Counted from the stretch's first letter, positions 638-61,418 are shown. The stretch: DNA of 64,000 bases from an uncultured Gammaproteobacteria bacterium (GCA_964344145.1 CAYFME010000007.1:2-64001), one strand, 5' to 3'. Made by a program: numbers and translations. The notes: a model not told the origin generated them from the sequence alone.

Positions 638-699
638 AGGTATGTGTAAGCACGAGCGCCGATCTCTTCGTGGAGACCGGCGTCACGGACGTTGCGTTG

Positions 700-1053
700 T
701 CAGGAGATGGCGGCGTTGTGCTGCTCGAGCATCGACACGAGCTCGCCCCAGGTGCGCGGGAACTTCGGCAGTCCGATGATCTCGCCATCGCGCCCGATCT
801 GCAGACCGCAGCGGACGTCACCGTCGCCCTTGGGCCAGATCGAGACCTCTTGGCGGTCCTCCGTGTGCCCCACGAGCGTCCGGAAGTTGCGCGTGGGCCA
901 GGACGGGTGAGGTCCGTCGCACTGGCTGTCGAGTCGCTTGTCCGCCCCCAGCAGAACGGTGACGTTGCCAACGCGAACGAAGTTGATCAGGTCAGGATGC
1001 GGCACTGCCAGCCTCCTTCGGCTTGGGCAACAGGCTGCGGGCGTCCTCTGCAC
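700..1053 (-). CDS. hypothetical protein in GC-rich insertion (possibly a frameshifted part of one gene with 992..1402)
   Basis: The 117 aa ORF has protein-like composition (HPDLINFVRVGNVTVLLGADKRL...). It lies in a ~63% GC segment with five mutually overlapping ORFs, so the call is uncertain. Confidence 0.25.
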   Translation of the reverse strand: MQRTPAACCPSRRRLAVPHPDLINFVRVGNVTVLLGADKRLDSQCDGPHPSWPTRNFRTLVGHTEDRQEVSIWPKGDGDVRCGLQIGRDGEIIGLPKFPRTWGELVSMLEQHNAAIS

Positions 1054-1402
1054 GGTTGAGCCCGATGACGCTGACCAGCTCGAGCTCGACGAGGAGGTAG
1101 GCCATCAGCAGGCCGAAGGTGTCGGCCCAGATGGGCACGGGGATGCTGATCCCGAGCTCCTCGATCACCAGGTAGAAGACCTTGCCATTGCCGGGCTTGG
1201 CCATCACGCGGTACGCGACGCTGTCGGTCTGGCCGGGGTTCACGTGGTAGATGCCGATGCACTTGCGGTTGCCCACGGGCAGCGGCTCGTCCCAGGCGAC
1301 GTCGTAGGACAGCTCGCCCTTCGGATGCGTGGCCGGCCGGAACCAGTCGCCATGTTTGGTGATCTGGATGCCCTCGATCGTTTCTGGCACACGGTGAGCC
1401 AT
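992..1402 (-). CDS. hypothetical protein in GC-rich insertion
   Basis: The 136 aa ORF (HVNPGQTDSVAYRVMAKPGNGKVFYLVIEELGI...) overlaps 700..1053 in another frame. The C-terminal 40 aa look like frameshift read-through. Confidence 0.3.
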   Translation of the reverse strand: MAHRVPETIEGIQITKHGDWFRPATHPKGELSYDVAWDEPLPVGNRKCIGIYHVNPGQTDSVAYRVMAKPGNGKVFYLVIEELGISIPVPIWADTFGLLMAYLLVELELVSVIGLNRAEDARSLLPKPKEAGSAAS

Positions 1403-1446
1403 CTGGCCTCCATCTATGGCATGTTCCGCAATGAGAGTAGCAAATA

Positions 1447-1474
1447 TTGGAAAAAAAGCAATAATAGGTATACT
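1447..1474 (+). promoter_or_regulatory. sigma70-like promoter for trmH (TTGGAA -16/17- TATACT)
   Basis: ttggaa at 1447-1452 and tatact at 1469-1474. The ATG at 1485 follows 10 nt after. Confidence 0.4.
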
Positions 1475-1484
1475 AGCGTCGACT

Positions 1485-2393
1485 ATGATCGTGATTGCTC
1501 ACAATATTCGCAGTCTGCACAACGTAGGGGCGATTTTTCGTAATGCGGCAGCATTTGGTGTTGAAACATTGTATTTGACCGGTATCACCGCCACGCCTCC
1601 TCGCAAAGAGATCGCCAAAGTTGCGCTCGGAGCACAGGACTTGGTCGACTGGGAGCAGGGGGATGTGGCACATGTGATTGATACGTTGCGTCAAGATGGG
1701 TATCGAGTGTTTGGCTTAGAAGCGGGCGAAGACGCGATTCCGATCGAGGACTTCGCTCGAGAATGCGCCCCCTCCGGCTCCCCCATAACTGGGGGAGGGA
1801 CTCCACGGTCCTCGATCTACCACGGTTCTCGTAAAGAAAAAAGGCGACTTCGCGGTAGTCTGGACTTAAAGTCCATCGCCCAGGAGATGCGGCGCGACCC
1901 AACTCCCGCTGAGCGTGAACTCTGGCAATATCTTCGACGCAAGCAAGTGCTTGGTTATAAATTCCGACGCCAGCACGGTATCGGTCCTTTTATTGTTGAT
2001 TTTTATTGTGATCGCGCGCGCTTGATTATAGAAGTCGACGGAGATATCCACGATGAATCGGAGAACGTGAAGCGCGATGCATTTCGCCAGCAGATGCTTG
2101 AGGACATCGGATATACTGTTATTCGGTTTCGGAATAAGGAGGTTCTTACTGATCCGGACGCGGTTATTGCACGGATCACCATGTGTCTCCCCTCCAGTTA
2201 TGGAGGGGCAGGGGGAGGCGAGTTTCATGGACGGAACATCGCCCTCGTCCTCGGAAACGAAGTAGACGGTATTGATGCGGATGTTCTTGAGTTGCTTGAT
2301 GGTTTGGTGGAGATTCCAATGGACAAAAAACGTTCGCTCAATGTTTCCGTTGCGTCCGGTGTTGCTATGTACGCGTTTGGGGTCAGGTCTTGA
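1485..2393 (+). CDS. trmH: SpoU/TrmH-family (TrmL-like) RNA 2'-O-methyltransferase interrupted in-frame by a 151-codon mobile insertion
   Basis: N-terminal IVIAHNIRSLHNVGAIFRNAAAFGVETLYL and C-terminal HGRNIALVLGNEVDGI...EIPMDKKRSLNVSVASGVAMYAF match the SpoU motifs. The track ORF 1416..2393 gives a 325 aa product versus ~160 aa for TrmL. The start is probably at 1485, downstream of the promoter. Confidence 0.65.
   Translation: MIVIAHNIRSLHNVGAIFRNAAAFGVETLYLTGITATPPRKEIAKVALGAQDLVDWEQGDVAHVIDTLRQDGYRVFGLEAGEDAIPIEDFARECAPSGSPITGGGTPRSSIYHGSRKEKRRLRGSLDLKSIAQEMRRDPTPAERELWQYLRRKQVLGYKFRRQHGIGPFIVDFYCDRARLIIEVDGDIHDESENVKRDAFRQQMLEDIGYTVIRFRNKEVLTDPDAVIARITMCLPSSYGGAGGGEFHGRNIALVLGNEVDGIDADVLELLDGLVEIPMDKKRSLNVSVASGVAMYAFGVRS
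1768..2220 (+). mobile_element. Family-1 palindromic element carrying a DUF559 (Vsr-like PD-(D/E)xK) endonuclease module, inserted in-frame in trmH
   Basis: The A hairpin half (1768-1807) and B hairpin half (2183-2220) are abutted in the cargo-less copy at 5324-5399. Here they bracket 375 bp encoding PTPAERELWQYLRRKQVLGYKFRRQHGIGPFIVDFYCDRARLIIEVDGDIHDESENVKRDAFRQQMLEDIGYTVIRFRNKEV, a DUF559 signature with D and ExD residues intact. Total length is 453 bp, or 151 codons. Confidence 0.7.
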
Positions 2394-2457
2394 ATCTTGA
2401 ATTATGGCGTTTCAAACGGAAAAAATCACATCAATTCAAGATTCAAGACCTGACCCC
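2379..2457. repeat. 25-bp perfect inverted repeat (ggggtcaggtcttgaatcttgaatt / aattcaagattcaagacctgacccc) with a 29-nt loop, spanning the trmH stop and GT2 start
   Basis: Arms at 2379-2403 and 2433-2457 are exact reverse complements. The loop begins with the ATG at 2404. Confidence 0.6.
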
Positions 2458-8597: not shown

Positions 8598-8660
8598 TCA
8601 AAGTGATTCACTTGCTGGATCTCTTCGAGAGCGCGGACCAGATGAAGCGCTCCAGAAAAG
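8593..8660. repeat. Island-A ~70-bp hairpin repeat, copy 1 (GCaCTCTCAAAGTGATTCAC...CTTCGAGAGCGCGGACCAGATGAAGCGCTCCAG)
   Basis: A 12-bp imperfect stem (GCGCTCTCAAAG/CTTCGAGAGCGC) has a ~19-nt variable loop and a conserved 3' tail. It ends ~10 nt before the GTG of ORF 8668. Confidence 0.6.
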
Positions 8661-8667
8661 GCAGACA

Positions 8668-8955
8668 GTGCGAGTCAGGCAGTTGGACTACCTCACGGAT
8701 GAGGTCATCGCCACGTTCCGTCAGGACGTCATGGACTCCGTCAGGGAGTTCGACGCCCTGCTAGAGACGCTCGGCGTGACCCCGGGAGACTTCTGGGGGG
8801 ACCGCCGCACCCGGCAGACCTTCATCACCCGGGTTCGTCTCGATGACGGGATCACGAGGCACTGCACCGTGAAGGTGTCGTACATCGGCTATCCCCACAT
8901 TCGCCTCGTGGCCCTTCTGAAGAAGGAGCCGCTCGGCGATCTCCTGGACCTGTAG
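8668..8955 (+). CDS. hypothetical protein (GC-rich island A)
   Basis: The 95 aa product starts at a GTG. It is preceded by repeat copy 1 and has no recognisable domain. Confidence 0.4.
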   Translation: MRVRQLDYLTDEVIATFRQDVMDSVREFDALLETLGVTPGDFWGDRRTRQTFITRVRLDDGITRHCTVKVSYIGYPHIRLVALLKKEPLGDLLDL

Positions 8956-8984
8956 TCGTAACGTGAACTTAGGCACCGCGCGAC

Positions 8985-9055
8985 GGTGCCGCTCTCAAAG
9001 TGATTCACACGTTGGATCCCTTCGAGAGCGCGGACCAACTGAAGCGCTCCAGAAT
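8985..9055. repeat. Island-A hairpin repeat, copy 2
   Basis: Sequence CGCTCTCAAAGTGATTCACACGTTGGATCCCTTCGAGAGCGCGGACCAACTGAAGCGCTCCAG lies ~10 nt upstream of the ATG at 9065. Confidence 0.6.
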
Positions 9056-9064
9056 GGGATAGAC

Positions 9065-9412
9065 ATGGCCACCAAGCCTTTGATCCGTAAGGAGTTTCGG
9101 GGGATTGCGAGGCAGAGGACGCCTTTGCGCCACTGGCGGATGCTGCTGTGGAGTATTCAGCGCATGATCAGTGGCAATCTGTCGTGGTGTTGGACGGATA
9201 GCGCTCACGATGTGCTGGGCGACTATCCGGGCGTCACCTCCTCCATCGAGAGCGGCGACGCCTACGGGTTTAAGGGCACGACGTGTTACGTCCTGCACCT
9301 CAAGCTCGAGGGTACGCCCGTGCGGATCGTCCAGCGTCACTCGCTCGAAGAGGCATGGGTGGAGTTCTACGGCCCCTTGCCTGCGTACCTGCGTGGCACG
9401 CTCGACGACTAG
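9065..9412 (+). CDS. hypothetical protein (GC-rich island A)
   Basis: The 116 aa product starts MATKPLIRKEF. The same repeated leader precedes ORF 8668. Confidence 0.4.
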   Translation: MATKPLIRKEFRGIARQRTPLRHWRMLLWSIQRMISGNLSWCWTDSAHDVLGDYPGVTSSIESGDAYGFKGTTCYVLHLKLEGTPVRIVQRHSLEEAWVEFYGPLPAYLRGTLDD

Positions 9413-9590
9413 CTCCTCCAACTTGTAACTTCGGAACCGTTCCCGGTCAGCTGGACGCTGCCGGGGTTCCCCATAGCTAATCACGCGATCCTGCGTGGTG
9501 GGCTACGGTGGAGCCGACGCTCCCCACATGCGTACAAACGTCCTGTTCTCCATATTGCGGCAACGCAGGTAACGGAGGCAGGCGAGTAAT

Positions 9591-9776
9591 GTGATGGAAC
9601 TGCTTGAGTTCCTCGTTGCACTCCTGGTGAAGTACACTGGGATGACCGACGCCCAGGCGTTCGACCTGGTGGGTGGGATGATTCTCTGGAGTGCTCCCTT
9701 GACGGTCGCTGCTGTCTTCGTGCTGATCTGGCTCATGGATTGGGCCGAGAGGAGGCGTGATGGAGAGGCCCGGTAG
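9591..9776 (+). CDS. small hydrophobic protein (holin-like, 1-2 TM)
   Basis: The 61 aa product has a hydrophobic core LIWLMDW and a basic tail. It overlaps the next ORF by 20 nt. Confidence 0.35.
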   Translation: MMELLEFLVALLVKYTGMTDAQAFDLVGGMILWSAPLTVAAVFVLIWLMDWAERRRDGEAR

Positions 9777-9966
9777 TGCACCGCTGGTGTCACTGATCAG
9801 CGTCCTGGCATCCGCATGCATCGTGTTCCTGATCGTGATGGGCGTGATGCACTGGGGCTACGGCCAGAACGTCAACGACGACTTCGGTGCCCTGATCGTG
9901 GTCGCCGCCATCGCTACTCCCGTGCTCCTTGGTGCAAGAACCATGGCACGAGACGGCATCCTCTAG
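9757..9966 (+). CDS. small 2-TM membrane protein
   Basis: The 69 aa product has two hydrophobic segments. Confidence 0.35.
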   Translation: MMERPGSAPLVSLISVLASACIVFLIVMGVMHWGYGQNVNDDFGALIVVAAIATPVLLGARTMARDGIL

Positions 9967-9994
9967 CGAGTCTCCCGGCGTCGCACTCGCGCGG

Positions 9995-10052
9995 CGCCGG
10001 CGCTCTCAAAGCGACTCATTCGTGGGTCCCTTCGAGAGCGCGGACCAACATT
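9995..10052. repeat. Island-A hairpin repeat, copy 3 (lacks the 3' tail)
   Basis: Sequence CGCTCTCAAAGCGACTCATTCGTGGGTCCCTTCGAGAGCGCGGACCAACAT. Confidence 0.55.
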
Positions 10053-10057
10053 AAGAA

Positions 10058-10095
10058 GACCCCTGCCAAGGATGGCGGGGGTCGGCTGTTTTTTT
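10058..10095 (+). terminator. rho-independent terminator (gacccctgcc-aaggatg-ggcgggggtc + GCTGTTTTTTT)
   Basis: A 10-bp stem with one G-U pair is followed by a 7-T run. It sits between convergent genes. Confidence 0.45.
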
Positions 10096-10145
10096 AAGCA
10101 CGAACCCCTCCGCGGCCCAGACGGGCGGGAGGGGTTTGACGGTGT

Positions 10146-11360
10146 TCAACGAACGCGCTCGAGCGTTTGTCGAATCTTCCAGCGGTCAGGTCGACGTAGA
10201 AAGGAGAGGACCTCACGCTTGTACTCGATCTGCTCAGGCGGTGGACTGACGATGCGGCGAGTGACGTTGCGTCCACGCTCCGCACCTGGCATGGCGATGT
10301 AGCCGCGTTTCTTGAGATCGGCGAGGATATCCGGTCTGTGCGGGCAGACGAGCAGCTGCACGGCCTTCACCTCGCGGGCGGTCAGTGGACGATCTCCGAC
10401 GATCTCTTGTGCGGCCCAGAGCGCTTCCAGGATGTACGTGTGTCGCCGACTGGGCAGGAGTCCGTTGTTCGACGGCGGGGTAGGAGTCGGTGCGGGTCCA
10501 GGGATCTCTGGCCCCTTTTCTTCCTTGCTCTCCGGCTGATGGAAGTCTGGGAACGTTGCGCGGTGCAGTTCCGTGAGCGCACGCGTCGACCGGGCCACCA
10601 CGTTGTCGATGAACGGTAGGCCCATGACATTGAGTCTCGGCAGGGCGTAGACCCGTACGTTACTTCCTGGCAGCAAGCCTCTTTCCTTCCGCATCATCTT
10701 ACGGGCGGTGATGATGTCGAAGTTGCGACACAGCCGCTCTGCGCATGACAGCGCTTCCTGAAGCGGGATCCCGTCACGCCTGAAGAGCATGGCGATTTCC
10801 AGACCGTTCAGGATACGACGCTTCAAGCCGGTCATGAGGTTGTGGATCTCGACAAGGAGCAGGACATCCCACGGGTCCATGCCGTTCCGGCGGGCGCCGG
10901 CATGCGGCATGCTGCCGTAGTCTCGGATCGTTGACCGCTCCGGTGTCGGCTCGGGATCAGGATCTGGCGACTTGGGGCCCGGCTCAGGATTTGATACGAC
11001 CTCCACCGGTCGATGCCTAACCTGCCGCCGTAGAGCACCACGTTCTCCTTGCACCAGGAGCGCGACGAGATCGTCGGGAAGGCGCTTCCTCCTGGGGGTC
11101 TCTATCTCCCGGAAGTGTTCTCTCTTGGGAACACGCAGAACCCAGAAGTTTCCACCAGCGCGTGAACGAATGGACATCACCCGGCGGTCGTAGATCGTCG
11201 CGGCCATCGGGTTGAACTCACCCGCGCAATCGTGCCAGTCACGGAGGATGTTGACCTGCCAGAGCAGGAGTCCGTCTTCCACCTCACTGTTGCTGTTGAT
11301 GATCCGTGCGGCGTCCCTCAGGAACGCCAGCACGCGGCTCGAAAATTCGAACATCGCCAT
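10146..11360 (-). CDS. hypothetical protein, 404 aa, ~63% GC with Pro/Glu-rich linkers (foreign, actinobacterial-like composition)
   Basis: It is the longest ORF in island A. The segment PEPGPKSPDPDPEPTPE is typical of high-GC Gram-positive proteins. No domain was recognised. Confidence 0.5.
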   Translation of the reverse strand: MAMFEFSSRVLAFLRDAARIINSNSEVEDGLLLWQVNILRDWHDCAGEFNPMAATIYDRRVMSIRSRAGGNFWVLRVPKREHFREIETPRRKRLPDDLVALLVQGERGALRRQVRHRPVEVVSNPEPGPKSPDPDPEPTPERSTIRDYGSMPHAGARRNGMDPWDVLLLVEIHNLMTGLKRRILNGLEIAMLFRRDGIPLQEALSCAERLCRNFDIITARKMMRKERGLLPGSNVRVYALPRLNVMGLPFIDNVVARSTRALTELHRATFPDFHQPESKEEKGPEIPGPAPTPTPPSNNGLLPSRRHTYILEALWAAQEIVGDRPLTAREVKAVQLLVCPHRPDILADLKKRGYIAMPGAERGRNVTRRIVSPPPEQIEYKREVLSFLRRPDRWKIRQTLERVR

Positions 11361-26666: not shown

Positions 26667-28514
26667 ATGGCATACGATCCTCAAGCACAGCGCAAGATCG
26701 CGGGCAACTGGCGCGAGTACCTCAACACGATCGCGCAGAGCATGCGCGTCTACCGATGGGTATGGGACGAGCTGATCGACAGGGACGCGCGACGCTGGGT
26801 GAAGCGGATGGTCGCGGCGCTGTTCGTCACGCTGGCCTTCTTCATGGCCATGCCATGGTTCATCAGTCTCGTGTTCGATGGCCTCGTCGCGCGCGATGTT
26901 CGTCAGCTCGGCATCGGTCTGATCGGATTTCTGGCCTGTCTGTTGGTGATGCGTGTGATGGATTACCTCACGGGCATCTGTCGTGAGTGGGTGCTGGGAC
27001 TCAACATGGGTACACGACATGACCGCATTAGCGAACTGTTCTTCGAGAAATCGCTGGGACAGCACGCGAAGCACCACGATCTTCTCTCGTCATCCAACGT
27101 GGAGAAGGGTCTTGGGAAGGTGTCTGAGTCGCAGGAGATGATGCTCTTTGAGGGCACGGAAGTCCTGCTGACCTTGCCGATCTCATGGGTCTTCCTGTGG
27201 ATTGTGAGTCCGGTGGCTGGCACGATCATGACCGTTGCGCTTCTGGCGCACGTTGTCTGGTCGATGTACCTCAACCGTCGGGTGGTAGAAGTCTGTACGC
27301 CGCTGGATGAGCAGTTCCGTAAGCACAACCGCTACCAGCGCGAGCGCTGGAAGCAGATTGTGCGCGTGAAGGTCAATGCGAAGGAGCGTGAGGAGCTCGA
27401 CAAGATGGATCGATGGTTCCATCGTATCCTCGATTCGGACCGCGACTTCTGGATGCGCTTCATCCTGCACGCGGTCGGTCGTGGAACGTTGACGAACCTC
27501 TTCGTCTTCGGTGTGCTCGTGTACGGCGCGTGGATGGTGTGGGGCGGCTTCTGGCAGGTTGGTCTGCTGTACCCGGTTTTCACCTGGTCCTCGATGATGC
27601 GTGATAACCTGTGGCGTCTGAGCCATGTGGAGCATCGCCTTAACTGGAATTATCCAGCGATCGCATCGTTGCGCGAAGCGCTGACCATTGAGCCCGATAT
27701 CGTCGATACCGCAGACGCCGTGGCACTCAGCCCGGACGAACCGGTGCACGTTGAAATCGACTGTGTCACGCATGCCTACGAAGATGGTGTGCAGGTGCTC
27801 AAGAACGTCTCGCTTTCGATCGAGCCCGGTCAGAAGGTTGCTCTTCTTGGGCTCTCGGGAGCCGGAAAGTCCACGCTTACACAGTTGGTTCTGCGTCAGA
27901 TGGATCCGACGGGTGGCTCGATTCGTGTGAACGGCCACGACCTGCGTGAACTGGAGCTCGCCTCATGGTTGAGCACTGTTGGGCACATCCCGCAGGACTC
28001 CGCAATCCTCGACGGAACGCTTCGCTACAATCTGCTCTACGGTCTGACTGCCCAGGAGATTGAGCAGATGGACGACGATCGAATCCGCGAGCTGATGGCA
28101 AGTGTGGAAATCGACTTCGACCGAGACGGTCTGGAAACGCTGGTTGGTGAGGGCGGCATTAAGCTCTCGGGTGGACAGCAGCAGCGCGTGATGATTGGTG
28201 CGGCAGCGATGAAGAAGCCGCGCTTCATGGTCATTGACGAGGCGACCTCCAGCCTCGATGCGGTTACGGAACGCAAGGTTCATGATGGGTTGCACAAGGT
28301 GCTGACTGCCGACATGAGTGCGCTCATCATCACGCATCGACTCTCAACGGTCCGTGACCTGTGTGATACGTTCGTTGTGATGCGTCCGGCAAAGGGCCTG
28401 ATCAACGGCACGCCGCAGATCGAGGCGGTCGCTGGTTCGTTCGAGGAGCTCTATAGGGTCTCCGAGACGTTCCGCGTGCTCGCCGACGAGCAGGGCCTTG
28501 ACGTGTCGCGCTGA
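26667..28514 (+). CDS. ABC transporter fused permease/ATP-binding protein (MsbA-like exporter), ~62% GC
   Basis: A 6-TM N-domain is followed by Walker A GLSGAGKST, the signature LSGGQQQRV and Walker B FMVIDEAT. Confidence 0.75.
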   Translation: MAYDPQAQRKIAGNWREYLNTIAQSMRVYRWVWDELIDRDARRWVKRMVAALFVTLAFFMAMPWFISLVFDGLVARDVRQLGIGLIGFLACLLVMRVMDYLTGICREWVLGLNMGTRHDRISELFFEKSLGQHAKHHDLLSSSNVEKGLGKVSESQEMMLFEGTEVLLTLPISWVFLWIVSPVAGTIMTVALLAHVVWSMYLNRRVVEVCTPLDEQFRKHNRYQRERWKQIVRVKVNAKEREELDKMDRWFHRILDSDRDFWMRFILHAVGRGTLTNLFVFGVLVYGAWMVWGGFWQVGLLYPVFTWSSMMRDNLWRLSHVEHRLNWNYPAIASLREALTIEPDIVDTADAVALSPDEPVHVEIDCVTHAYEDGVQVLKNVSLSIEPGQKVALLGLSGAGKSTLTQLVLRQMDPTGGSIRVNGHDLRELELASWLSTVGHIPQDSAILDGTLRYNLLYGLTAQEIEQMDDDRIRELMASVEIDFDRDGLETLVGEGGIKLSGGQQQRVMIGAAAMKKPRFMVIDEATSSLDAVTERKVHDGLHKVLTADMSALIITHRLSTVRDLCDTFVVMRPAKGLINGTPQIEAVAGSFEELYRVSETFRVLADEQGLDVSR

Positions 28515-28589: not shown

Positions 28590-28934
28590 CTAGAGGTGAA
28601 CCTTGATGAACGTGCCGCCGTGGTGGAGATCGAGCGTGAGCGTGGCCTGGTTGAGCGCACTGATGGGCATGCGCACGGTGACGTCGCGCGTCTCGTCTCC
28701 GGCCTTGACGCGGATCACCAGCTCGAGCTTCTCGGAGCCCGGGGAGCCGAAGGTGCCCACACGAACGAGCTTGCCAGTGCGCTGGATCCTTGACGCTGAC
28801 CGGACGCCCCAGGCGCTGCGCGAGCTCGAACACGGCCAGGCGCGAGGTGAGGACATCGCCGATCCGACGCAGGAGGCTCTGCGTGTCGGAGGAGGCGAAC
28901 TTGGGAAGAAGCGGCTTGAGAAGCGTGCCGAGGG
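28590..28934 (-). pseudogene. frameshifted GC-rich ORF (frame A MTHSPLGTLLKPLL...RPVSVKD joins frame B IQRTGKLVRVGTFG...TFIKVHL near 28790)
   Basis: Two minus-strand ORFs (28402..29001 and 28590..28856) are each protein-like over only half their length. The protein-like halves abut at GGATCC 28783-28788. Confidence 0.3.
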
Positions 28935-28997
28935 GGCTGTGAGTCATCGTTGTCTCCAGGAAGGTACCCGCTAGCCTAGCATGAATGCCGGCCTGCG

Positions 28998-34445: not shown

Positions 34446-34474
34446 TTGACAAGATCTCAAAATTGTGCTATAGT
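34446..34474 (+). promoter_or_regulatory. consensus sigma70 promoter TTGACA-17-(TGc)TATAGT with an upstream A-tract
   Basis: ttgaca lies at 34446-34451 and tatagt at 34469-34474. Confidence 0.55.
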
Positions 34475-34689
34475 ATACGTGTTAGAAAATAGAAGAGAGA
34501 CGTAAGGCACCGACGAAACAGGTCCTGGAGCGAAAGCTCTGATAAAGGTTCGATCTCTCTTTGGAAGGATCGAATTTTCTGCATAGGTCGCGAGGCTATG
34601 AAAGCGCAAAGGCTTTCATAGCGGCGTGATCACAGAGACACGTTCCGTGAATCGGCGCCGCTGCCGATCCCCTCAGACCTGGAAGAGAC

Positions 34690-35253
34690 ATGACCCGCAC
34701 GACCCTCGCCCTCTCCGCCCTGTCCCTGTTCGCCCTCACCGGCTGCATCGACCTGGACGGCGACGGCAACCCCGACATCAACGTCGGCGCCGAGATCTGC
34801 CTCGGCAACCACTCGAAGGTGGGCAACACCGCTGGCATCGAGTTCGACCTGTGCGTCGCCATCGGCGACAGCAACATGGTCGGCTCCCCGTTCCTGGCGG
34901 ACGGTGTGCACATCGAGTGGGTGAACGCGTACGCGGAGCAGGCGTACCAGGACGACAACTACGCCGTGACGGACTTCAACGTGAGCTGCACGGTCGAGGA
35001 CAGCGAGGGTGACCTCGTCCCCGCGACCGCGCACGTCTACACCGACGGAGCCATCGTGGACATCTACATCCCGGACATCCCCTCGCACTTCGAGGCGGAG
35101 TGCACGGGCTCGGTGACCCTCGGCTACGGCGCGTCCGACGTCCTGTTCATCGACGACAACTCGAAGGGCGAGACCACCCACGTCGAGTGGGAGGACGAGA
35201 CCATCGACGACGTCCGCGAGCGCAACGGCGAGCTCCAGATCGACTTCGACTGA
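34690..35253 (+). CDS. acidic lipoprotein (lipobox LTGC), ~66% GC, foreign
   Basis: MTRTTLALSALSLFALTGC is a signal peptide plus lipobox. The RBS ggaagag is present. Overlapping ORFs 34626..35012 and 34630..35373 were judged spurious. Confidence 0.5.
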   Translation: MTRTTLALSALSLFALTGCIDLDGDGNPDINVGAEICLGNHSKVGNTAGIEFDLCVAIGDSNMVGSPFLADGVHIEWVNAYAEQAYQDDNYAVTDFNVSCTVEDSEGDLVPATAHVYTDGAIVDIYIPDIPSHFEAECTGSVTLGYGASDVLFIDDNSKGETTHVEWEDETIDDVRERNGELQIDFD

Positions 35254-35478
35254 GCTTCGACCGCGTCCGCTGAGCACCCGCACGTAGATCCTATACCGTT
35301 GACTCGGGAAGGGTTGCGTAGCGGGTGCACTTGGTTTTAGAGAAACGTCATCGACTCCGCAGCGAGAGTGCATACGGAGCCGAGAAGGGATGCCTGCTCG
35401 CGGCAGCTGAGCGACGCCGGCGTTTCAAGGGTTGGGACCACTTGTCATGTGGGTCACTGCCGCGAGAAGGCAAAACAA

Positions 35479-38472: not shown

Positions 38473-38547
38473 AAAATCGTCTCCTATTAGCACTCTCAAT
38501 GGTAGACTGCTAATTTTGCTTTGTCAAGAACTTGTCCAGATGCACAG

Positions 38548-38575
38548 TGGCCCTGCCGGAGGGGGCAGGGCCACA
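38548..38575. terminator. perfect GC-rich palindrome gtggccctgcc-ggag-ggggcagggccac downstream of the GC-rich gene
   Basis: Seen in the sequence. It has no U-tract, as in high-GC style terminators. Confidence 0.4.
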
Positions 38576-38591
38576 GGGCCACATGTTCGCA

Positions 38592-39140
38592 CTAGTGGTA
38601 GCGCGGGTGGGAGACGGAGAAGTGGTAGGAGTGGAAGACCATGTCGCCCATCGCGATGAGGAAGAAGGTGACGCAGAAGATGCCACACACGACGGCGCAG
38701 AAGCCGGCGAAGCCAGCGACCTCGGCGAGGTTGCGCACGCGGTGCGTGTACATCGAAGCAGGCATGGGCCAGTTCTTCGGGTGTCCCTTGAGCTCGTGGA
38801 CGAGCACGAGCAACGCGGCGTGCCGGTAGTGCTCGTTGTTCTGGATGCTCCTGCGGAGCCGCTCGCGCGCGTTGTACACGTGCGTGTAGAAGCTGCGGAA
38901 GCTCGGCTCCAGACCCTCCTTCGACATGAAGTTCAGGGCGTGCCAGAGCTTCCGGCTCGCGAGGTTGATGTCCAGCGTCTCCATGGCGCGGCTGATCGCG
39001 TCGCGGACGTTGCGCTCGACCAGGCGCCGCTCGGGCTCCAGCCAGATGACGTGGATCAGCCACCACGCGACGAAGCCGAGCAAGGCGATGGCGAGGAAGA
39101 GACCGGAGACTGACATGAAGGCGGCGGTGTGCATGGTCAT
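38592..39140 (-). CDS. hypothetical 2-TM membrane protein, ~65% GC (foreign)
   Basis: It is the only one of three overlapping ORFs with protein-like composition. TM helices lie at both ends. Confidence 0.45.
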   Translation of the reverse strand: MTMHTAAFMSVSGLFLAIALLGFVAWWLIHVIWLEPERRLVERNVRDAISRAMETLDINLASRKLWHALNFMSKEGLEPSFRSFYTHVYNARERLRRSIQNNEHYRHAALLVLVHELKGHPKNWPMPASMYTHRVRNLAEVAGFAGFCAVVCGIFCVTFFLIAMGDMVFHSYHFSVSHPRYH

Positions 39141-39158
39141 TCCTTGGGAAAGGGGCGA

Positions 39159-39215
39159 GTAAAATTAGCACATTGAGCCGCGATTGTCAATGTGCTCTAT
39201 GTGCCTTAAAATAGA
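39159..39215 (+). promoter_or_regulatory. promoter region for 39222: 10-bp inverted repeat agcacattga/tcaatgtgct overlapping a -35 TTGTCA, with -10 TAAAAT
   Basis: The sequence reads agcacattgagccgcgattgtcaatgtgctctatgtgccttaaaat. Confidence 0.35.
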
Positions 39216-48676: not shown

Positions 48677-48765
48677 AGACGAGCTCAGTCTACATCACTT
48701 CGCCTTGACATTCAAGGCTTTTATTGGTACCTTCAGGGCCATTCTCGTGAACTGGAGGGCGACGA

Positions 48766-49455
48766 ATGGCAGCTCCTCATCCGCATATCTTGCAAGTCGT
48801 TTTGTGGCTGATGCGCCACGGGGACGTCGATCGCACTGACGTAGTGCCTGGTGCACCCTTCGACCCGCCGCTGTCAGACGACGGTCGCTGGCAGGTCAAC
48901 GCCGCGTTCGAACGTCACATCCTGCCGGAGCTCACACAGCACGACGCAAGCTGGGACGGTCAGCTCTGGAACAGCGGTCTCGTCCGCGCGCGCCAGAGCG
49001 CCGAGAGCATCGGTTCGTTCCTGCTCCAGCTGGGCGACCGCTGTCCCTGGACGCCGGTCACCATGTCCGCGCCCGAGCTGAACCACCAGGCTGTGATGTC
49101 GGCGATCCCGGAGCATCGTGCGCGCTTCCTGGAGCTATGCGACGAGCTCGAGGAGGGGGAGGATACGACGATGCACGACTGGCAGACGCGCTGGTCACAC
49201 TCGTCATGGCTCGCGAGACGGCTCGCCGCGTGGGCTCACGAGCGGATTCTCGTGGATCTGCACGGTGCGAGCACGGACCTCGTGCATCACATCGTGGGCA
49301 TCACGCACCACCCGCTCGCCGGGCTGCTGCACATGTACCCGGGGCACGCTCCGGCTACCTGGCCCAACGCCTCGATCTTCCGCTACACCGTCCACTTCAA
49401 CGGCATCTCGCCGCCGCAGTGCATGGACAGCAAGTTCATCGGCTATAAGGCCTGA
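48766..49455 (+). CDS. histidine phosphatase (phosphoglycerate mutase-like) family protein, ~65% GC (foreign)
   Basis: The RHG motif LMRHGDVD is present. Confidence 0.55.
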   Translation: MAAPHPHILQVVLWLMRHGDVDRTDVVPGAPFDPPLSDDGRWQVNAAFERHILPELTQHDASWDGQLWNSGLVRARQSAESIGSFLLQLGDRCPWTPVTMSAPELNHQAVMSAIPEHRARFLELCDELEEGEDTTMHDWQTRWSHSSWLARRLAAWAHERILVDLHGASTDLVHHIVGITHHPLAGLLHMYPGHAPATWPNASIFRYTVHFNGISPPQCMDSKFIGYKA

Positions 49456-49503
49456 GCTCGACGTCTACGACAACCTGCCTACGCCGAGGCTTCGGCAAGG
49501 CAA

Positions 49504-49536
49504 GCACCCCCGACCGGTCTCGCCGGTGCGGGGGTG
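49504..49536 (+). terminator. GC-rich hairpin (gcacccccg-accggtctcgccggt-cgggggtg) after the foreign phosphatase gene
   Basis: Seen in the sequence. Confidence 0.4.
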
Positions 49537-49560
49537 TCGCGCGTTCAAATCTGTAACACT

Positions 49561-60010: not shown

Positions 60011-60033
60011 TTGTGGCGATCGTACCAAAAGTT
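60005..60033. repeat. Family-3 palindrome copy c (AACATTTGTGGCGATCGTACCAAAAGTT), overlapping the start region of the wHTH-Cas2-like gene
   Basis: It shares 21 identical bases with copy a (gtgaacatttgtggcgatcgt). Confidence 0.6.
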
Positions 60034-60044
60034 TACCACACCCT

Positions 60045-60080
60045 AAATCAGAAAAGACCCTTGTTCGGGTCTTTTCTTTT
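60045..60080 (-). terminator. intrinsic terminator for the beta-CA gene (aagaccc-ttgttc-gggtctt with U-tract on the minus strand)
   Basis: Seen in the sequence. Confidence 0.5.
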
Positions 60081-60089
60081 GCATGTTTT

Positions 60090-60503
60090 TTAAGCAACTT
60101 CTTTGATCTCAACGGATCCGTCGTCCTGGATGTCGGCAATCACTTTCTTGATTGCAACGTCCGGATAGGTTCCTTTGAGGTACGTTTCAGCGGTTTTAAG
60201 CGCTTCAACGTGGTTTTCCCACTCAGCCTCACGGCTGTCGAAGGCATCGCGTCCACCGTATCCACCACAATCGGTGTGGTTCATCAACGTGATGCAGTTG
60301 ATGTCGTGAAGCTTCTTTGAAAGGCTGAGCTGACTCTCAACAGCTCCGCCCATACTTCCATCGTTGAGGTCCTTTGCGGCACCAGCAATGGAAATAACGT
60401 CGGTGTCGTTCGTGAGATCATTGTCTGACATGTAGCTTTCGATGGCTGATTCCAGACGGAAATCCATACATCGAACAAGGGCAGCACTACAGGTATGTGA
60501 CAT
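60090..60503 (-). CDS. beta-class carbonic anhydrase (Cab-type, short)
   Basis: The zinc ligand motifs CMDFR (CxDxR) and HTDCGG (HxxCG) are present. Confidence 0.6.
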   Translation of the reverse strand: MSHTCSAALVRCMDFRLESAIESYMSDNDLTNDTDVISIAGAAKDLNDGSMGGAVESQLSLSKKLHDINCITLMNHTDCGGYGGRDAFDSREAEWENHVEALKTAETYLKGTYPDVAIKKVIADIQDDGSVEIKEVA

Positions 60504-60639
60504 AAGAATGTCGAATGTTAGAAGTTAGAACGACGGGATAATACACGAAAAAAGGGAAAAAGTCAATACTCATCTTTTTTGAATGCACGACGACCGCCTC
60601 CCGAGAAGTGGGTGGCGGTCGTACGGGCATCGGAAGACG

Positions 60640-61323
60640 CTACTTGGCGGCCTCCGGTGCGTCGCGGCGCGGGAAGATGCCCCAGCGGAGCATGCGCTCT
60701 GCGTCACGGGTCCGACGCTGGTTGCGCTCCAGCTCACGGCGGGCCAGGAAGTCCGGAACGTTCTCCACGTGCGTGACGCCGCGGAAGGCGTCGTGACGGC
60801 CGTTGAGGCTCGCGACCATGCGCTCGACACGCGTATGCGCGAAGCGCCGCTGGAGCGCGCTGGCGATGGTCATGCTGGAGGCGTTGATGTGCTCCTCCTC
60901 CTGACGCTCACCGGGCTCGTGGCCCAGGAGTATCTTGCGGCCAGCACAGCAGGTGTGCTCCAGCACGATGATGTGCTCGGTGTGGTGCTCGCCGATCAGC
61001 GGCGCGATCTCCTCCTCGATGATGCGGTCGCGGTAGCTCTCGTCGTCGGCCATGCGCGGCACGATCCCGGCCAGGCAGGGCCCGCCGTCGTTGAGCCAGC
61101 GCAGGTTCGGACGGAAGCCCGCCGCGCGCTCGAGCTGGTTGCCCACGCCGGCGCGCACCAGGTGGCGGTCCCAGGCCGTCTGCAGCCCCGGCTCCACGCA
61201 GCCCAGGATCAGGACCTGCGCACCCTCCGCCAGCGTGAACTGATCCATCCCGCCGTCGGGAATCCACCGGTACATACCGGTCACTCGTAGGGCCATGCCC
61301 ACTCCACTCATCAGCAAGTTCAT
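60640..61323 (-). CDS. hypothetical protein, ~66% GC (foreign)
   Basis: It is the most protein-like of three overlapping ORFs. A GC-rich hairpin (60575-60607) lies downstream. Confidence 0.4.
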   Translation of the reverse strand: MNLLMSGVGMALRVTGMYRWIPDGGMDQFTLAEGAQVLILGCVEPGLQTAWDRHLVRAGVGNQLERAAGFRPNLRWLNDGGPCLAGIVPRMADDESYRDRIIEEEIAPLIGEHHTEHIIVLEHTCCAGRKILLGHEPGERQEEEHINASSMTIASALQRRFAHTRVERMVASLNGRHDAFRGVTHVENVPDFLARRELERNQRRTRDAERMLRWGIFPRRDAPEAAK

Positions 61324-61418
61324 CTCGACCTCCTGCTACTACTAGCCACCGCGGCGTTCGTAACGGCGCAATACTAAACCAAAACAGCCCATCTGTCAAG
61401 ATGCGCTGTTCTCTGTTT

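What the first reader, a model, noticed from the sequence alone, without database searches (positions are those of the whole stretch)
640..61335. Mosaic genome: at least seven discrete GC-rich (~62-68% GC) insertions in a ~50% GC backbone
Segments 640-1405, 8600-11400, 26630-28990, 34620-35290, 38510-39180, 48720-49560 and 60570-61335 differ sharply in composition from the flanking housekeeping genes. They generate clusters of mutually overlapping ORFs on both strands, a hallmark of high-GC DNA. Each sits in an intergenic gap, usually carries a single gene and ends with its own GC-rich hairpin. Products include a 404-aa Pro/Glu-linker protein, an ABC exporter, a lipoprotein, a membrane protein and a histidine phosphatase. 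Codon usage and Pro-rich linkers look actinobacterial. If the backbone is a CPR/Saccharibacteria-like episymbiont, this would be piecemeal gene capture from a high-GC host. Alternatively the contig is chimeric or engineered.
Basis: partly seen in the sequence, partly recalled or inferred. Interest (0 to 1): 0.6.

Follow-up and report, generated by a model that had tools for sequence, protein, structure and literature searches.

The report
Persistently GC-rich genes in Patescibacteria
Seven sharply GC-rich gene units sit in a 50% GC genome of a tiny candidate-phyla-radiation bacterium, and at least four are old residents of the lineage that stay GC-rich in related genomes, not genes recently taken from a high-GC host.

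Summary
Each is one transcription unit, or a few: an AT-rich sigma-70-type promoter where one was found, a coding region with GC3 of 0.72-0.97 (backbone 0.545 +/- 0.043), and a stable GC-rich 3' hairpin. The junctions are identical in three independent assemblies, so the contig is not chimeric.

The interpretation, piecemeal capture from an actinobacterial host, is not supported. The backbone is Patescibacteria, as guessed. Four of the seven islands have homologs in the same syntenic slot in related Patescibacteria: the ABC exporter, the lipoprotein, the His-phosphatase-like gene and, weakly, a carbonic-anhydrase-like paralog. The ABC exporter's named hits are mostly Patescibacteria. The lipoprotein and phosphatase-like genes have no homologs outside the lineage. 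The orthologs are also GC3-enriched in their own genomes (+0.08 to +0.47), although backbone four-fold sites are near saturation. Neutral amelioration of one ancient import cannot explain this.

GC-rich outlier genes are common in Patescibacteria loci (29/931 ORFs) and absent from control loci of other phyla (0/461). The most likely reading is resident, fast-evolving accessory genes kept GC-rich by a gene-specific drive. The mechanism is not resolved. Islands 1, 2 and 5 remain untested.

The parts
650..1411 (-). Island 1 (65.9% GC). It holds two GC3-rich coding segments on the minus strand. One is the 136-aa ORF at 992-1402 (GC3 0.90). The second lies in another frame at about 680-985, within ORF 700-1053 (GC3 0.84). 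A 3' hairpin sits at about 652-676. The island lies between a minus-strand gene that runs off the window start (begins about 639) and SpoU (1416, +).
   Evidence: frame plot; hairpin z -2.4. No Pfam, PHROG or NCBIfam hit. Not tested in large protein databases or in close relatives.
8626..11341 (.). Island 2 (61.6% GC), between MurJ and AlaRS. Its genes are 8668-8955 (+, 95 aa, GC3 0.88), 9065-9412 (+, 115 aa, GC3 0.81), 9591-9776 (+, 61 aa, hydrophobic), 9757-9966 (+, 69 aa, hydrophobic) and 10146-11360 (-, 404 aa, Pro-rich linkers, GC3 0.72). Three copies of a ~63-nt repeat lie at 8595-8657, 8992-9054 and 9988-10049. An upstream TTGACA-N17-TATTAT promoter at about 8468-8497 is followed by a terminator-like hairpin. 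Two hairpins follow the 404-aa gene (10050-10146).
   Evidence: (called genes). All five proteins are orphans in Pfam, PHROGs and NCBIfam; the 404-aa protein also has no hit in plasmid or phage collections. The single SNP between two assemblies is at 10970.
26667..28514 (+). Island 3a: a 615-aa fused permease/ATPase ABC exporter with GC3 0.74. It follows a conserved 44-45-aa small ORF and a terminator hairpin (26589-26620). The 3' hairpin lies at about 28540-28570.
   Evidence: Pfam and NCBIfam. Named homologs are mostly Patescibacteria. The same Wzy-smallORF-ABC-Fmt slot occurs in L164, L168, L170 and L173, with ABC GC3 elevated in each. It forms a monophyletic clade with those relatives.
28600..28950 (-). 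Island 3b: a very GC-rich segment (66% GC; the GC-richest codon phase runs at about 0.8-0.97 in sliding windows) encoding a ~120-aa protein. It is interrupted by a frame switch near 28765, so it is probably a pseudogene.
   Evidence: no significant family. No counterpart was found downstream of the ABC gene in L164, L168, L170 or L173.
34446..35471 (+). Island 4 unit. It comprises a TTGACA-N17-TATAGT promoter (34446-34474), a ~215-nt leader with hairpins, a 187-aa acidic lipoprotein gene at 34690-35253 (GC3 0.97) and a structured GC-rich 3' region to 35471.
   Evidence: Orthologs in the same slot, between the ~450-aa hypothetical gene and DUF5654-ClpB: L168 (53% identity, GC3 0.76), L174 (51%, 0.87), L173 (34%, 0.82), L170 (30%, 0.91). 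L164 has a different secreted 101-aa gene there with GC3 0.95.
38542..39190 (-). Island 5 unit. It comprises a TTGACA-N17-TAATTT promoter (about 39162-39190), a 182-aa protein gene at 38592-39140 with hydrophobic segments at both ends (GC3 0.96), and a 3' hairpin at 38548-38575.
   Evidence: No family hit. Not tested in large databases. The slot could not be reached in any close relative.
48705..49543 (+). Island 6 unit. It comprises a TTGACA-N17-TACCTT promoter (about 48705-48733), a 229-aa His_Phos_1-like gene at 48766-49455 (GC3 0.83, with an RHG motif near the N-terminus), and a 3' hairpin at about 49506-49538. It lies between AspRS and GreA on the opposite strand.
   Evidence: An exhaustive HMMER search found only itself plus three weak hits. 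Hit P0132 lies in the same AspRS-GreA slot of the close relative (L175), beside a tandem paralog; identities are 26% and 24%, E 4e-14 and 5e-12. The slot is empty in more distant relatives.
60585..61399 (-). Island 7 unit. It comprises a TTGACA-N17-TAGTAT promoter (about 61371-61399), a GGAGG ribosome-binding site, a 227-aa gene at 60640-61323 (GC3 0.90) and a 3' hairpin at 60588-60625. It lies between atpC and a canonical Pro_CA_2 gene (60090-60503).
   Evidence: Similarity to Pro_CA and Pro_CA_2 is weak: Pfam 0.0047 and 0.064, local HMM 1.6e-4, hhalign E 0.0036 with 9% probability. The gene right after atpC is also GC3-enriched in L086 (a clear Pro_CA_2 paralog), L131, L129 and L090.

Best explanation
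The seven GC-rich segments are separate transcription units of the organism's own accessory gene set. They encode mostly envelope or secreted proteins and other very fast-evolving, lineage-restricted proteins. They sit in hypervariable slots between conserved housekeeping genes of a Patescibacteria chromosome. They are not recent insertions from a high-GC host.

Shown:
- Five of the units have an ordinary AT-rich TTGACA-N17-TAnnnT promoter in backbone-type DNA. Every unit has a GC-rich coding region and a GC-rich hairpin.
- Four of the seven have homologs in the same slot in related genomes.
- Those homologs are also GC3-enriched relative to their own backbones, across divergences at which backbone four-fold sites are almost saturated.

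Inferred:
- The GC excess is being actively maintained by a gene-specific fixation bias towards G and C.
- The most likely source is GC-biased gene conversion that accompanies recurrent recombination and allelic replacement at these gene-turnover hot spots.
- The alternative is selection acting on the DNA or the transcript.
- This bias pushes all synonymous families to G/C endings, spills into 3' untranslated regions and Lys-to-Arg usage, and goes with accelerated protein evolution.
For: Residency:
- The ABC exporter occupies the same Wzy-ABC-Fmt-Def-PriA slot in L164, L168, L170 and L173. It forms one clade with them in a tree of 120 homologs.
- Lipoprotein orthologs sit in the same slot in L168, L173, L174 and L170. 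Identity (53/51/34/30%) falls in the same order as backbone identity.
- isl6 homologs lie in the same AspRS-GreA slot of L175.
- The post-atpC slot holds a GC-enriched gene in five genomes, one of them a clear Pro_CA_2 paralog.

Persistence (island gene GC3 against backbone GC3):
- ABC: 0.74/0.545, 0.68/0.48, 0.52/0.39, 0.68/0.57, 0.58/0.50.
- Slot 4: 0.97/0.545, 0.76/0.39, 0.91/0.57, 0.82/0.50, 0.87/0.45.
- Backbone four-fold sites differ at 0.655-0.681, against 0.75 for random sequence (K4 1.55-1.8). By my estimate from a simple substitution model, a shared ancestral excess would then have decayed to about 30% or less.
- A second lineage shows the same pattern. L100 and L108 (AddB 81.5% identical, backbone GC3 about 0.3) share three syntenic genes with GC3 0.76-0.95 and saturated or near-saturated four-fold sites.

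Nature of the bias:
- All codon families shift to G/C endings. These are not the codons preferred in ribosomal-protein genes, such as CCA, GGT/GGA, GCT and TCT.
- K/(K+R) is 0.22 in the islands against 0.48 in the backbone.
- The 3' UTRs and hairpins are GC-rich.
- Island GC3 loosely tracks backbone GC3 (pooled rho 0.57).

Turnover: the content of slots 3b, 4, 6 and 7 differs between relatives.

Generality: GC-outlier ORFs number 29/931 in Patescibacteria loci and 0/461 in control loci of other phyla.

Not chimeric.
Against: - No recombination or weak-to-strong fixation bias was measured.
- Strain-level comparisons show no SNP excess in the islands.
- The GC boundaries are sharp, and the flanking genes have ordinary GC3 of 0.48-0.58. 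A diffuse conversion tract would not obviously produce that.
- The island dinucleotide signature (AA/TT 0.81, against 1.16 in the backbone and about 1.2 in two high-GC CPR loci) resembles non-CPR high-GC genomes. A foreign origin would predict that.
- Islands 1, 2 and 5 have no comparative or large-database evidence at all.
- The Pro_CA_2 link for island 7 is weak.
- isl6 homology in the relative is only 24-26%.
- For the ABC gene alone, one ancient import with slow amelioration is quantitatively borderline rather than excluded.
Confidence: 0.5

Rival explanations
1. Recurrent horizontal acquisition from high-GC non-CPR donors, possibly hosts such as Actinomycetota or Chloroflexota, into a few permissive integration hot spots. 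Each lineage would have acquired or replaced its slot gene independently and fairly recently. The genes would look like orphans because the donors or the gene families are unsampled.
For: - Codon usage is generic high-GC and the dinucleotide signature is non-CPR-like. The islands are nearer to Solirubrobacteraceae, Acidimicrobiales and Limnocylindrales loci (delta* 71-85) than to the backbone (112) or to high-GC CPR loci (144-168).
- Slot contents differ between relatives. L164 has a different secreted gene in slot 4. Slot 6 is empty in distant relatives. Slot 3b is variable.
- One island gene looks like a decaying pseudogene.
- Lys-to-Arg and GC1/GC2 values are shifted part of the way towards high-GC proteomes.
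- The ABC family also occurs in Eisenbacteria, Binatia and Acidobacteria at 45-49% identity.
Against: - No donor homolog was found for any island gene. isl6 has none among 1.84 billion representatives. The only hit for isl4 is a CPR relative in the same slot. The 404-aa, isl6 and isl7 proteins have no hit in 72,556 plasmids, and the 404-aa protein has none in 50,697 phages.
- The ABC gene is monophyletic with its syntenic relatives, yet it carries the same 'foreign' signature. The signature therefore does not prove foreign origin.
- Lipoprotein identities follow the species distances.
- There are no integrases, tRNAs or flanking repeats.
- Promoters are backbone-like.
- Island protein composition (GARP 0.22-0.36, FYMINK 0.15-0.26) lies closer to the backbone than to loci with GC3 above 0.85.
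Confidence: 0.27
2. Selection on the transcripts or the DNA of these particular genes keeps them GC-rich. Possible reasons are mRNA stability or structure, escape from an A/U-specific ribonuclease or toxin, or codon matching to a high-GC host in which the products or messages act. Recombination would play no part.
For: - Where a promoter was found, the GC-rich tract starts close to or downstream of the inferred transcription start, most clearly for islands 5, 6 and 7, and in every island it ends at the terminator hairpin. The promoters remain AT-rich.
- The effect is gene-specific and conserved in orthologs across genomes.
- Many products are secreted or envelope proteins that could act at a host interface.
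Against: - No ribonuclease or toxin was identified, and there are no expression data.
- The products are functionally mixed: a lipoprotein, an ABC exporter, a phosphatase-like protein and a carbonic-anhydrase-like protein.
- The frameshifted island 3b is still GC-rich.
- Host codon matching would not predict island GC3 tracking the symbiont's own backbone GC3.
Confidence: 0.15
3. A single ancient import of each gene from a very GC-rich donor into the family ancestor, followed by vertical descent and slow, still incomplete neutral amelioration.
For: Synteny and a clade structure that fit vertical descent. For the ABC gene, the residual excess of +0.08 to +0.20 is about what an initial +0.45 would leave after the observed divergence. 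That is my estimate from the divergence.
Against: For slot 4 the residual excess is +0.32 to +0.47 in every genome. For the L100/L108 genes it is +0.47 to +0.66. Both exceed any possible starting excess once decay to about 30% or less is applied.
Confidence: 0.06
4. An assembly chimera, binning artefact or engineered construct.
For: Only the sharpness of the compositional boundaries.
Against: - The same arrangement occurs in megahit assemblies of two samples and in a Logan assembly. Differences are 1 SNP in 21.7 kb and 10 SNPs in 17.5 kb, with no difference at any junction.
- Boundaries coincide with gene and terminator ends.
- The same slots are GC-rich in independent relatives from other projects.
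Confidence: 0.01

Closest known systems
Horizontally acquired genomic islands with atypical GC content and amelioration (Lawrence and Ochman model; named from my own knowledge)
   Same: Discrete segments with deviant GC, codon usage and dinucleotide signature lie between conserved core genes. The slots vary in content between relatives.
   Different: The islands are GC-rich rather than AT-rich. They carry no mobility genes, tRNA or flanking repeats. No donor homologs exist. Orthologs sit in the same slots of relatives and keep the GC excess despite near-saturated synonymous divergence. Amelioration predicts the opposite.
GC-biased gene conversion in bacteria
   Same: GC3 is elevated in a subset of genes independently of translational codon preference. 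The elevation affects all synonymous families and is linked to gene turnover and fast evolution.
   Different: The effect here (+0.1 to +0.65 in GC3) is, by my recollection of that paper, about ten times larger than it reports. It is confined to single transcription units with sharp edges. Recombination itself was not measured.
Phage morons (single genes with their own promoter and terminator and a distinct GC content, inserted between conserved genes; named from my own knowledge)
   Same: The anatomy matches: one gene, its own sigma-70-type promoter where found, its own hairpin, a composition unlike the neighbours, and insertion in an intergenic gap.
   Different: The setting is a cellular chromosome among housekeeping genes, not a prophage. 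There are no PHROG hits for the nine island proteins tested and no phage-genome hit for the 404-aa protein. The promoters are backbone-like and the genes are old residents.
O-antigen and capsule loci with persistently atypical GC in all strains (from my own knowledge)
   Same: These are surface-related, hypervariable loci flanked by conserved genes. Their deviant composition persists across lineages.
   Different: Those loci are AT-rich multigene clusters exchanged as alleles within species. The units here are single GC-rich genes that persist across deeply diverged species.
Reported gene transfer between Saccharibacteria and their actinobacterial hosts (from my own knowledge; no paper retrieved here describes GC-rich islands)
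   Same: A CPR genome with genes of host-like, high-GC composition.
   Different: No actinobacterial homologs were found. The closest named relative of the backbone is labelled Uhrbacteria or Patescibacteria rather than Saccharibacteria.

Membership tests
Genomic island captured from a high-GC (actinobacterial) host | Base composition and codon usage unlike the recipient backbone | tested here: met
   GC is 60-69% against 48-53%. GC3 is 0.72-0.97 against 0.545 +/- 0.043. delta* is 112 against a null of 28 +/- 9.
Genomic island captured from a high-GC (actinobacterial) host | Closest homologs lie in the donor lineage, not in the recipient's lineage | tested here: not met
   ABC exporter: named hits are mostly Patescibacteria and it forms a clade with syntenic relatives. 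isl4: the only hit is a CPR contig. isl6: the only meaningful hits are in the close relative. Islands 1, 2 and 5 were not searched in the large databases.
Genomic island captured from a high-GC (actinobacterial) host | Absent from the same site in close relatives | tested here: not met
   Slots 3, 4, 6 and 7 are occupied by homologs or by GC-enriched genes in relatives. Slot 6 is empty only in distant relatives. Slots 1, 2 and 5 could not be reached.
Genomic island captured from a high-GC (actinobacterial) host | Mobility signatures: integrase or transposase, tRNA target, flanking direct repeats | tested here: not met
   No tRNA. No flanking repeats. No mobility domains among the called genes of the regions covered.
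Genomic island captured from a high-GC (actinobacterial) host | Encoded proteins have donor-like (high-GC) amino-acid composition | tested here: inconclusive
   GC1 is 0.56-0.71, GC2 0.38-0.50, GARP 0.22-0.36. For loci with GC3 near 0.9 the expected values are about 0.77, 0.51 and 0.40. However, K/(K+R) is shifted to 0.22, and the high-GC CPR locus L171 has similar GC1 and GC2.
Assembly chimera | Junctions not reproducible between independent assemblies | tested here: not met
   The islands and junctions are identical in ERZ930065, ERZ930061 and the Logan ERR2281800 contigs. Read-level coverage could not be tested.
Phage moron | Single gene with its own promoter and terminator | tested here: met
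   TTGACA-N17-TAnnnT promoters lie upstream of islands 2, 4, 5, 6 and 7. All seven islands have stable 3' hairpins.
Phage moron | Resides in a phage or prophage, or belongs to phage protein families | tested here: not met
   The neighbours are housekeeping genes. There are no PHROG hits. The 404-aa protein has no phage-genome hit.
Integron cassette or Xer (pdif) module | A shared palindromic recombination site at cassette ends, plus a recombinase | tested here: not met
   The 3' hairpins differ in sequence between islands. No conserved flanking palindrome occurs at slot 4 across relatives. No recombinase gene was seen.
GC-biased gene conversion hot spot | GC3 elevated in all synonymous families, independently of translationally preferred codons | tested here: met
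   The islands use CCG/CCC, GGC and GCC, whereas ribosomal-protein genes prefer CCA, GGT/GGA and GCT.
GC-biased gene conversion hot spot | Higher recombination rate and a weak-to-strong fixation bias in the affected genes | not testable with these tools
   This needs read-level population data. The only strain comparisons available show too few SNPs.
ABC exporter with fused permease and ATPase (island 3a) | An ABC_tran ATPase domain plus an N-terminal ABC transmembrane domain | tested here: met
   PF00005 at 4.5e-30. PF00664 at 4.4e-6, just below its cutoff. NCBIfam type I secretion and MsbA-like families at 1e-50 to 1e-61, below the equivalog cutoffs.
Pro_CA_2 (putative beta-carbonic-anhydrase-like) for the island 7 gene | A significant profile match that includes the Cys...His-x-x-Cys metal-site motifs | tested here: inconclusive
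   Pfam Pro_CA 0.0047 and Pro_CA_2 0.064, both below cutoff. Local HMM 1.6e-4. hhalign E 0.0036 with 9% probability. The motifs GCVEPG and HTCC are present. The AlphaFold2 model is unusable at pLDDT 41.
His_Phos_1 (histidine phosphatase) for the island 6 gene | A Pfam match above the gathering score and the catalytic RHG motif | tested here: met
   32.2 bits against a cutoff of 21.7, E 1.1e-7. The motif LMRHGD lies at residues 15-20. The homologs in L175 align only from residue 44-48 onward.

The most novel reading that the evidence does not exclude
Patescibacteria genomes contain a class of fast-evolving accessory genes, mostly secreted or envelope proteins, that an active gene-specific GC drive holds at very high GC3. 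The offset reaches +0.65 over the backbone and has lasted through near-saturating synonymous divergence. This would be an isochore-like compositional compartment at single-gene scale in bacteria. It would arise either from unusually strong GC-biased conversion at recombination hot spots or from selection on transcripts that act at the host interface.
Probability: 0.3. Interest if true: 0.8.

Novelty: new variant of a known kind. Interest (0 to 1): 0.6.

Why it matters
Atypical GC content is routinely read as evidence of recent horizontal transfer. In episymbiotic CPR bacteria it is read as evidence of gene capture from the host. In this window that inference fails. The GC-rich genes tested are lineage-restricted, syntenic in relatives, and stay GC-rich over times at which neutral amelioration should have erased the signal.

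If this holds more widely, composition-based HGT calls in Patescibacteria would be systematically misleading. These genomes would also offer an unusually clean bacterial system for measuring gene-specific GC drive, whether biased conversion or selection on synonymous sites. They are small, have sharp single-gene contrasts, and have many sequenced relatives. The affected genes, such as lipoproteins, membrane proteins and an exporter, are also candidates for the poorly known host-interaction surface of these organisms.

Tried and rejected
- Concatenating five island proteins into one query for the 5.8-billion-protein search returned nothing, not even the query's own proteins. That search was wasted.
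- AlphaFold2 on the island 7 protein without an alignment gave pLDDT 41, so no fold search was run.
- The orphan proteins tested had no hits in PHROGs, NCBIfam, Pfam at relaxed thresholds, PDB sequences, plasmid records or phage records.
- Rfam found no RNA family in the window, and ARAGORN found no tRNA. The islands are therefore not structured-RNA genes. The GC3 >> GC1 > GC2 periodicity shows that they are coding.
- Translational selection was rejected. The islands avoid the codons preferred in ribosomal-protein genes.
- Overlapping antisense ORFs were treated as a by-product of high GC3, not as genes.
- High-GC CPR relatives as donors (L142 and L171, about 63% GC) were considered. Their GC1 and GC2 fit, but their AA/TT signature of about 1.2 does not match the islands' 0.81.
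- Site-specific recombination modules were rejected. The AATACGCC palindromes near island 4 are not conserved in relatives and the hairpins are not shared between islands.
- Strain-level hypervariability was not found.
- Reaching slots 1, 2 and 5 in close relatives failed.
- Choosing ClpB for the genome-collection scan was poor. It returned mostly other phyla, but those loci later served as composition controls.

Full report
**Observation.** The window averages 51.9% GC. A 500-bp profile and a two-state GC HMM recover exactly seven high-GC segments:
- 650-1411 (65.9%)
- 8626-11341 (61.6%)
- 26685-28997 (60.3%)
- 34653-35471 (65.0%)
- 38542-39132 (65.3%)
- 48806-49543 (66.9%)
- 60585-61369 (68.8%)

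The stretches between them are 48.3-52.7% GC. Backbone ORFs have GC3 of 0.545 +/- 0.043 (n=41). The best-frame ORFs inside the islands have GC3 of 0.72-0.97 with GC3 >> GC1 > GC2. They are therefore protein-coding. They are not RNA genes, since Rfam and ARAGORN find nothing. The many overlapping ORFs on both strands are the usual shadow of high GC3.

**Anatomy.** Each island is one transcription unit or a few.
- Islands 4, 5, 6 and 7 carry one gene each: a 187-aa acidic lipoprotein, a 182-aa protein with hydrophobic ends, a 229-aa His_Phos_1-like protein and a 227-aa protein.
- Island 3 is a 615-aa fused ABC exporter plus a very GC-rich ~120-aa minus-strand gene, which a frame switch near 28765 interrupts.
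- Island 2 has five genes, including the 404-aa protein with Pro-rich linkers, and three copies of a 63-nt repeat.
- Island 1 has two coding frames.
- Islands 2, 4, 5, 6 and 7 are preceded by near-consensus TTGACA-N17-TAnnnT promoters that lie in AT-rich, backbone-like DNA.
- Every unit ends in a stable GC-rich hairpin, with z-scores of -2.4 to -4.8.
- The flanking housekeeping genes have ordinary GC3 of 0.48-0.58, so the boundaries are sharp.

**Not an artefact.** The contig comes from a metagenome project (PRJEB17505). The same arrangement appears in megahit assemblies of two samples (112-kb and 133-kb contigs) and in a Logan assembly. The assemblies differ by 1 SNP in 21,755 bp and by 10 SNPs in 17,486 bp. 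None of the differences lies at a junction or inside islands 6 and 7.

**The backbone.** Gene content and synteny identify a Patescibacteria (CPR) chromosome. Markers include a short AlaRS, the S13-S11-S4-RpoA-L17-L13-S9 block, MurJ, MreBCD-PBP2, F-type ATP synthase and DUF5654-ClpB. The close relatives found share gene order and 72-89% protein identity. One is GCA_018664485.1, labelled Candidatus Uhrbacteria. Another is GCA_043818555.1.

*Island 3a, the ABC exporter.*
- Thirteen of the 16 hits that carry an organism name are Patescibacteria.
- The 79%, 60%, 55% and 54% homologs sit in the same Wzy-smallORF-ABC-Fmt-Def-PriA slot in L164, L168, L173 and L170.
- In a neighbour-joining tree of 120 homologs, the window's protein groups with these relatives. 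Eisenbacteria, Binatia and Acidobacteria sequences fall elsewhere.

*Island 4, the lipoprotein.*
- The 5.8-billion-protein search returned one hit.
- That hit's contig carries DUF5654 next door, so it is the same slot of another CPR genome.
- tblastn and gene lists found further orthologs in that slot in L168, L173 and L170, at 53%, 34% and 30% identity.
- L164 carries a different secreted gene there.

*Island 6, the phosphatase-like gene.*
- An exhaustive HMMER scan of 1.84 billion representatives found only the protein itself plus three weak hits.
- The best annotated hit is a hypothetical protein of GCA_018664485.1.
- Its locus shows two tandem homologs (26% and 24% identity, E 4e-14 and 5e-12) in the same AspRS-GreA gap and on the same strand as in the window.
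- More distant relatives have GreA next to AspRS with nothing between.

*Island 7.*
- The gene lies between atpC and a canonical Pro_CA_2 gene.
- In L086 that position holds a clear Pro_CA_2 paralog (Pfam 3e-13). In L131, L129 and L090 it holds divergent genes that share CxDxR and HxxC-type motifs.
- The window's protein matches Pro_CA and Pro_CA_2 only weakly: Pfam 0.0047 and 0.064, local HMM 1.6e-4, hhalign E 0.0036.

*All islands.* No island has a tRNA, an integrase or flanking direct repeats. The orphan proteins tested match nothing in PHROGs, NCBIfam, plasmid records, phage records or the PDB.

**The GC excess is conserved.** The homologs in relatives are also GC3-enriched against their own backbones.

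| Gene or slot | Genome | Gene GC3 | Backbone GC3 |
|---|---|---|---|
| ABC exporter | window | 0.74 | 0.545 |
| ABC exporter | L164 | 0.68 | 0.48 |
| ABC exporter | L168 | 0.52 | 0.39 |
| ABC exporter | L170 | 0.68 | 0.57 |
| ABC exporter | L173 | 0.58 | 0.50 |
| ABC exporter | L172 | 0.57 | 0.37 |
| Slot 4 | window | 0.97 | 0.545 |
| Slot 4 | L168 | 0.76 | 0.39 |
| Slot 4 | L170 | 0.91 | 0.57 |
| Slot 4 | L173 | 0.82 | 0.50 |
| Slot 4 | L174 | 0.87 | 0.45 |
| Slot 4 (different gene) | L164 | 0.95 | 0.48 |
| Slot 6 | window | 0.83 | 0.545 |
| Slot 6 (two genes) | L175 | 0.49, 0.49 | about 0.39 |
| Slot 7 | window | 0.90 | 0.545 |
| Slot 7 | L090 | 0.79 | 0.47 |
| Slot 7 | L131 | 0.62 | 0.25 |
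| Slot 7 | L129 | 0.62 | 0.35 |
| Slot 7 | L086 | 0.55 | 0.39 |

Backbone four-fold sites between the window and these relatives differ at 0.655-0.681, against 0.75 for random sequence. This gives a divergence of 1.55-1.8 substitutions per site. By my estimate from a simple substitution model, a compositional excess inherited from the common ancestor would then have decayed to roughly 30% or less. That cannot yield +0.32 to +0.47 in every slot-4 gene. For the ABC gene (+0.08 to +0.20) it is only borderline.

An unrelated pair of loci repeats the pattern more strongly. L100 and L108 have AddB proteins 81.5% identical and backbone GC3 of about 0.3. They share three syntenic genes, which look secreted or beta-barrel-like from their sequences, with GC3 of 0.76-0.95 and 56-62% identity. 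Their four-fold sites are saturated or close to it.

Across all the loci fetched, ORFs at least 10 points above the locus median GC number 29 of 931 in Patescibacteria-type loci (21 of 867 without the window). They number 0 of 461 in control loci from other phyla with comparable GC (Fisher p 1e-5 and 2e-4).

**Nature of the bias.**
- Island codons shift to G or C endings in every family. They do not use the codons that the ribosomal-protein genes prefer, such as CCA, GGT/GGA, GCT and TCT. This is not translational selection.
- The bias reaches protein composition. K/(K+R) is 0.22 in the islands and 0.48 in the backbone.
- It also reaches the 3' untranslated regions.
- GC1, GC2 and GARP/FYMINK stay closer to the backbone than to genomes with comparable GC3.
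- Island GC3 loosely tracks backbone GC3 (pooled rho 0.57, p 0.017, points not independent). Residents under a roughly constant extra push would behave this way.
- Against this, the dinucleotide signature of the islands resembles non-CPR high-GC loci. AA/TT is 0.81, against 1.16 in the backbone and about 1.2 in two high-GC CPR loci, and delta* to Actinomycetota or Chloroflexota loci is 71-85. The demonstrably native ABC gene shows the same signature, so the signature does not by itself indicate foreign origin.

**Interpretation.**
- The best-supported reading is resident, lineage-restricted, fast-evolving accessory genes in gene-turnover slots, kept GC-rich by a gene-specific drive.
- I favour GC-biased conversion tied to recurrent recombination at these slots. 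Three points support it: all synonymous families are affected, non-coding flanks inside the units are affected, and protein evolution is accelerated.
- Three points count against it. The edges are sharp. The strain comparisons show no excess polymorphism. By my recollection of Lassalle et al. 2015 (PMC4450053, listed but not read here), the effect is far larger than reported bacterial cases.
- Recurrent import from unsampled high-GC donors remains a serious rival, especially for islands 1, 2, 3b and 5, for which I have no comparative data.
- Selection on the transcripts is a third possibility.
- One ancient import followed by slow amelioration fails for slot 4.
- Chimerism is excluded.

**Limits.**
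- Only islands 3a, 4 and 6 were searched in the very large protein databases.
- One of the three searches was lost to a failed concatenation trick.
- Slots 1, 2 and 5 could not be reached in close relatives.
- The Pro_CA_2 assignment for island 7 and the 24-26% homology for island 6 are weak in sequence terms and lean on synteny.
- Backbone GC3 values are means of a handful of flanking genes per locus.
- No population-genetic test of a GC drive was possible.

Noticed in passing
window 1416-2393; repeats at 168-208, 1767-1807, 2179-2219, 5323-5399: The SpoU methylase gene carries a DUF559/MTES_1575 endonuclease domain inserted in its middle (residues 151-257). Two GC-rich hairpin repeats flank the insert. 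The same two repeats lie directly next to each other at 5323-5399, like an empty site or a solo element. This suggests a small mobile endonuclease element inserted in frame.
   Followed up: partly
window 54800-55504 (CDPS) and 55863-56501 (HD/YfbR-like): A cyclodipeptide synthase gene with low GC (about 40%, GC3 0.38) and an HD-domain gene lie between p127/DciA and AddB. Both are missing from that position in the close relatives L175 and L084. This is an AT-rich, lineage-specific insertion of the classical HGT kind, in the same window as the GC-rich units.
   Followed up: partly
window 23269-23304, 39623-39658, 59479-59514, 60003-60038: There are four copies of a 36-nt palindrome (GTGAACATTTGTGGCGATCGTCACAAATGTTGACCA) at gene junctions. 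Two of them bracket the PaaX-like regulator gene. It may be an operator that defines a small regulon.
   Followed up: no
window 8595-8657, 8992-9054, 9988-10049: A ~63-nt repeat with hairpin potential occurs three times inside island 2. Two copies lie about 11 nt upstream of consecutive genes, like a shared 5' leader element.
   Followed up: no
window 8468-8595 and 34446-34689: Strong promoters are followed by 100-215-nt leaders containing terminator-like hairpins, upstream of islands 2 and 4. These could be attenuators, riboswitch-like leaders or small RNAs. No Rfam family matches them.
   Followed up: no
window about 43100-43430: Cumulative GC skew peaks here, and genes converge on this point from both sides. 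It looks like a replication-terminus-like switch of strand bias.
   Followed up: no
window 17253-19434: Two tandem paralogous genes (296 aa and 429 aa) sit between S9 and the polysaccharide cluster, with a CNNM-family gene (19465-20478) after them. In L164 nothing lies between S9 and the polysaccharide-synthesis gene. L168 has a different gene there, and L170 has other genes there. This is a variable slot with ordinary GC, so slot variability alone does not bring GC enrichment.
   Followed up: partly
L100 12976-15826 and L108 4760-7563: Two related genomes of 36-38% GC carry the same three genes downstream of AddB, with GC3 of 0.76-0.95. From their sequences these look like a secreted ~330-aa protein, a ~210-aa protein ending in an aromatic residue like an outer-membrane beta-barrel, and a Cys-rich ~105-aa protein.
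   Followed up: partly
L172 2300-6200 and 11921-12682: A non-syntenic relative with backbone GC3 of about 0.37 carries several GC-rich ORFs (59-67% GC in 500-bp windows; one gene has GC3 0.87) interleaved with normal genes. It is another mosaic of the same kind.
   Followed up: no
L084 1-164: An AT-rich stretch of short tandem-like motifs (CTACAACCTAGTACCTAA and variants) lies upstream of the Pro_CA_2 gene in the nearest AddB relative.
   Followed up: no
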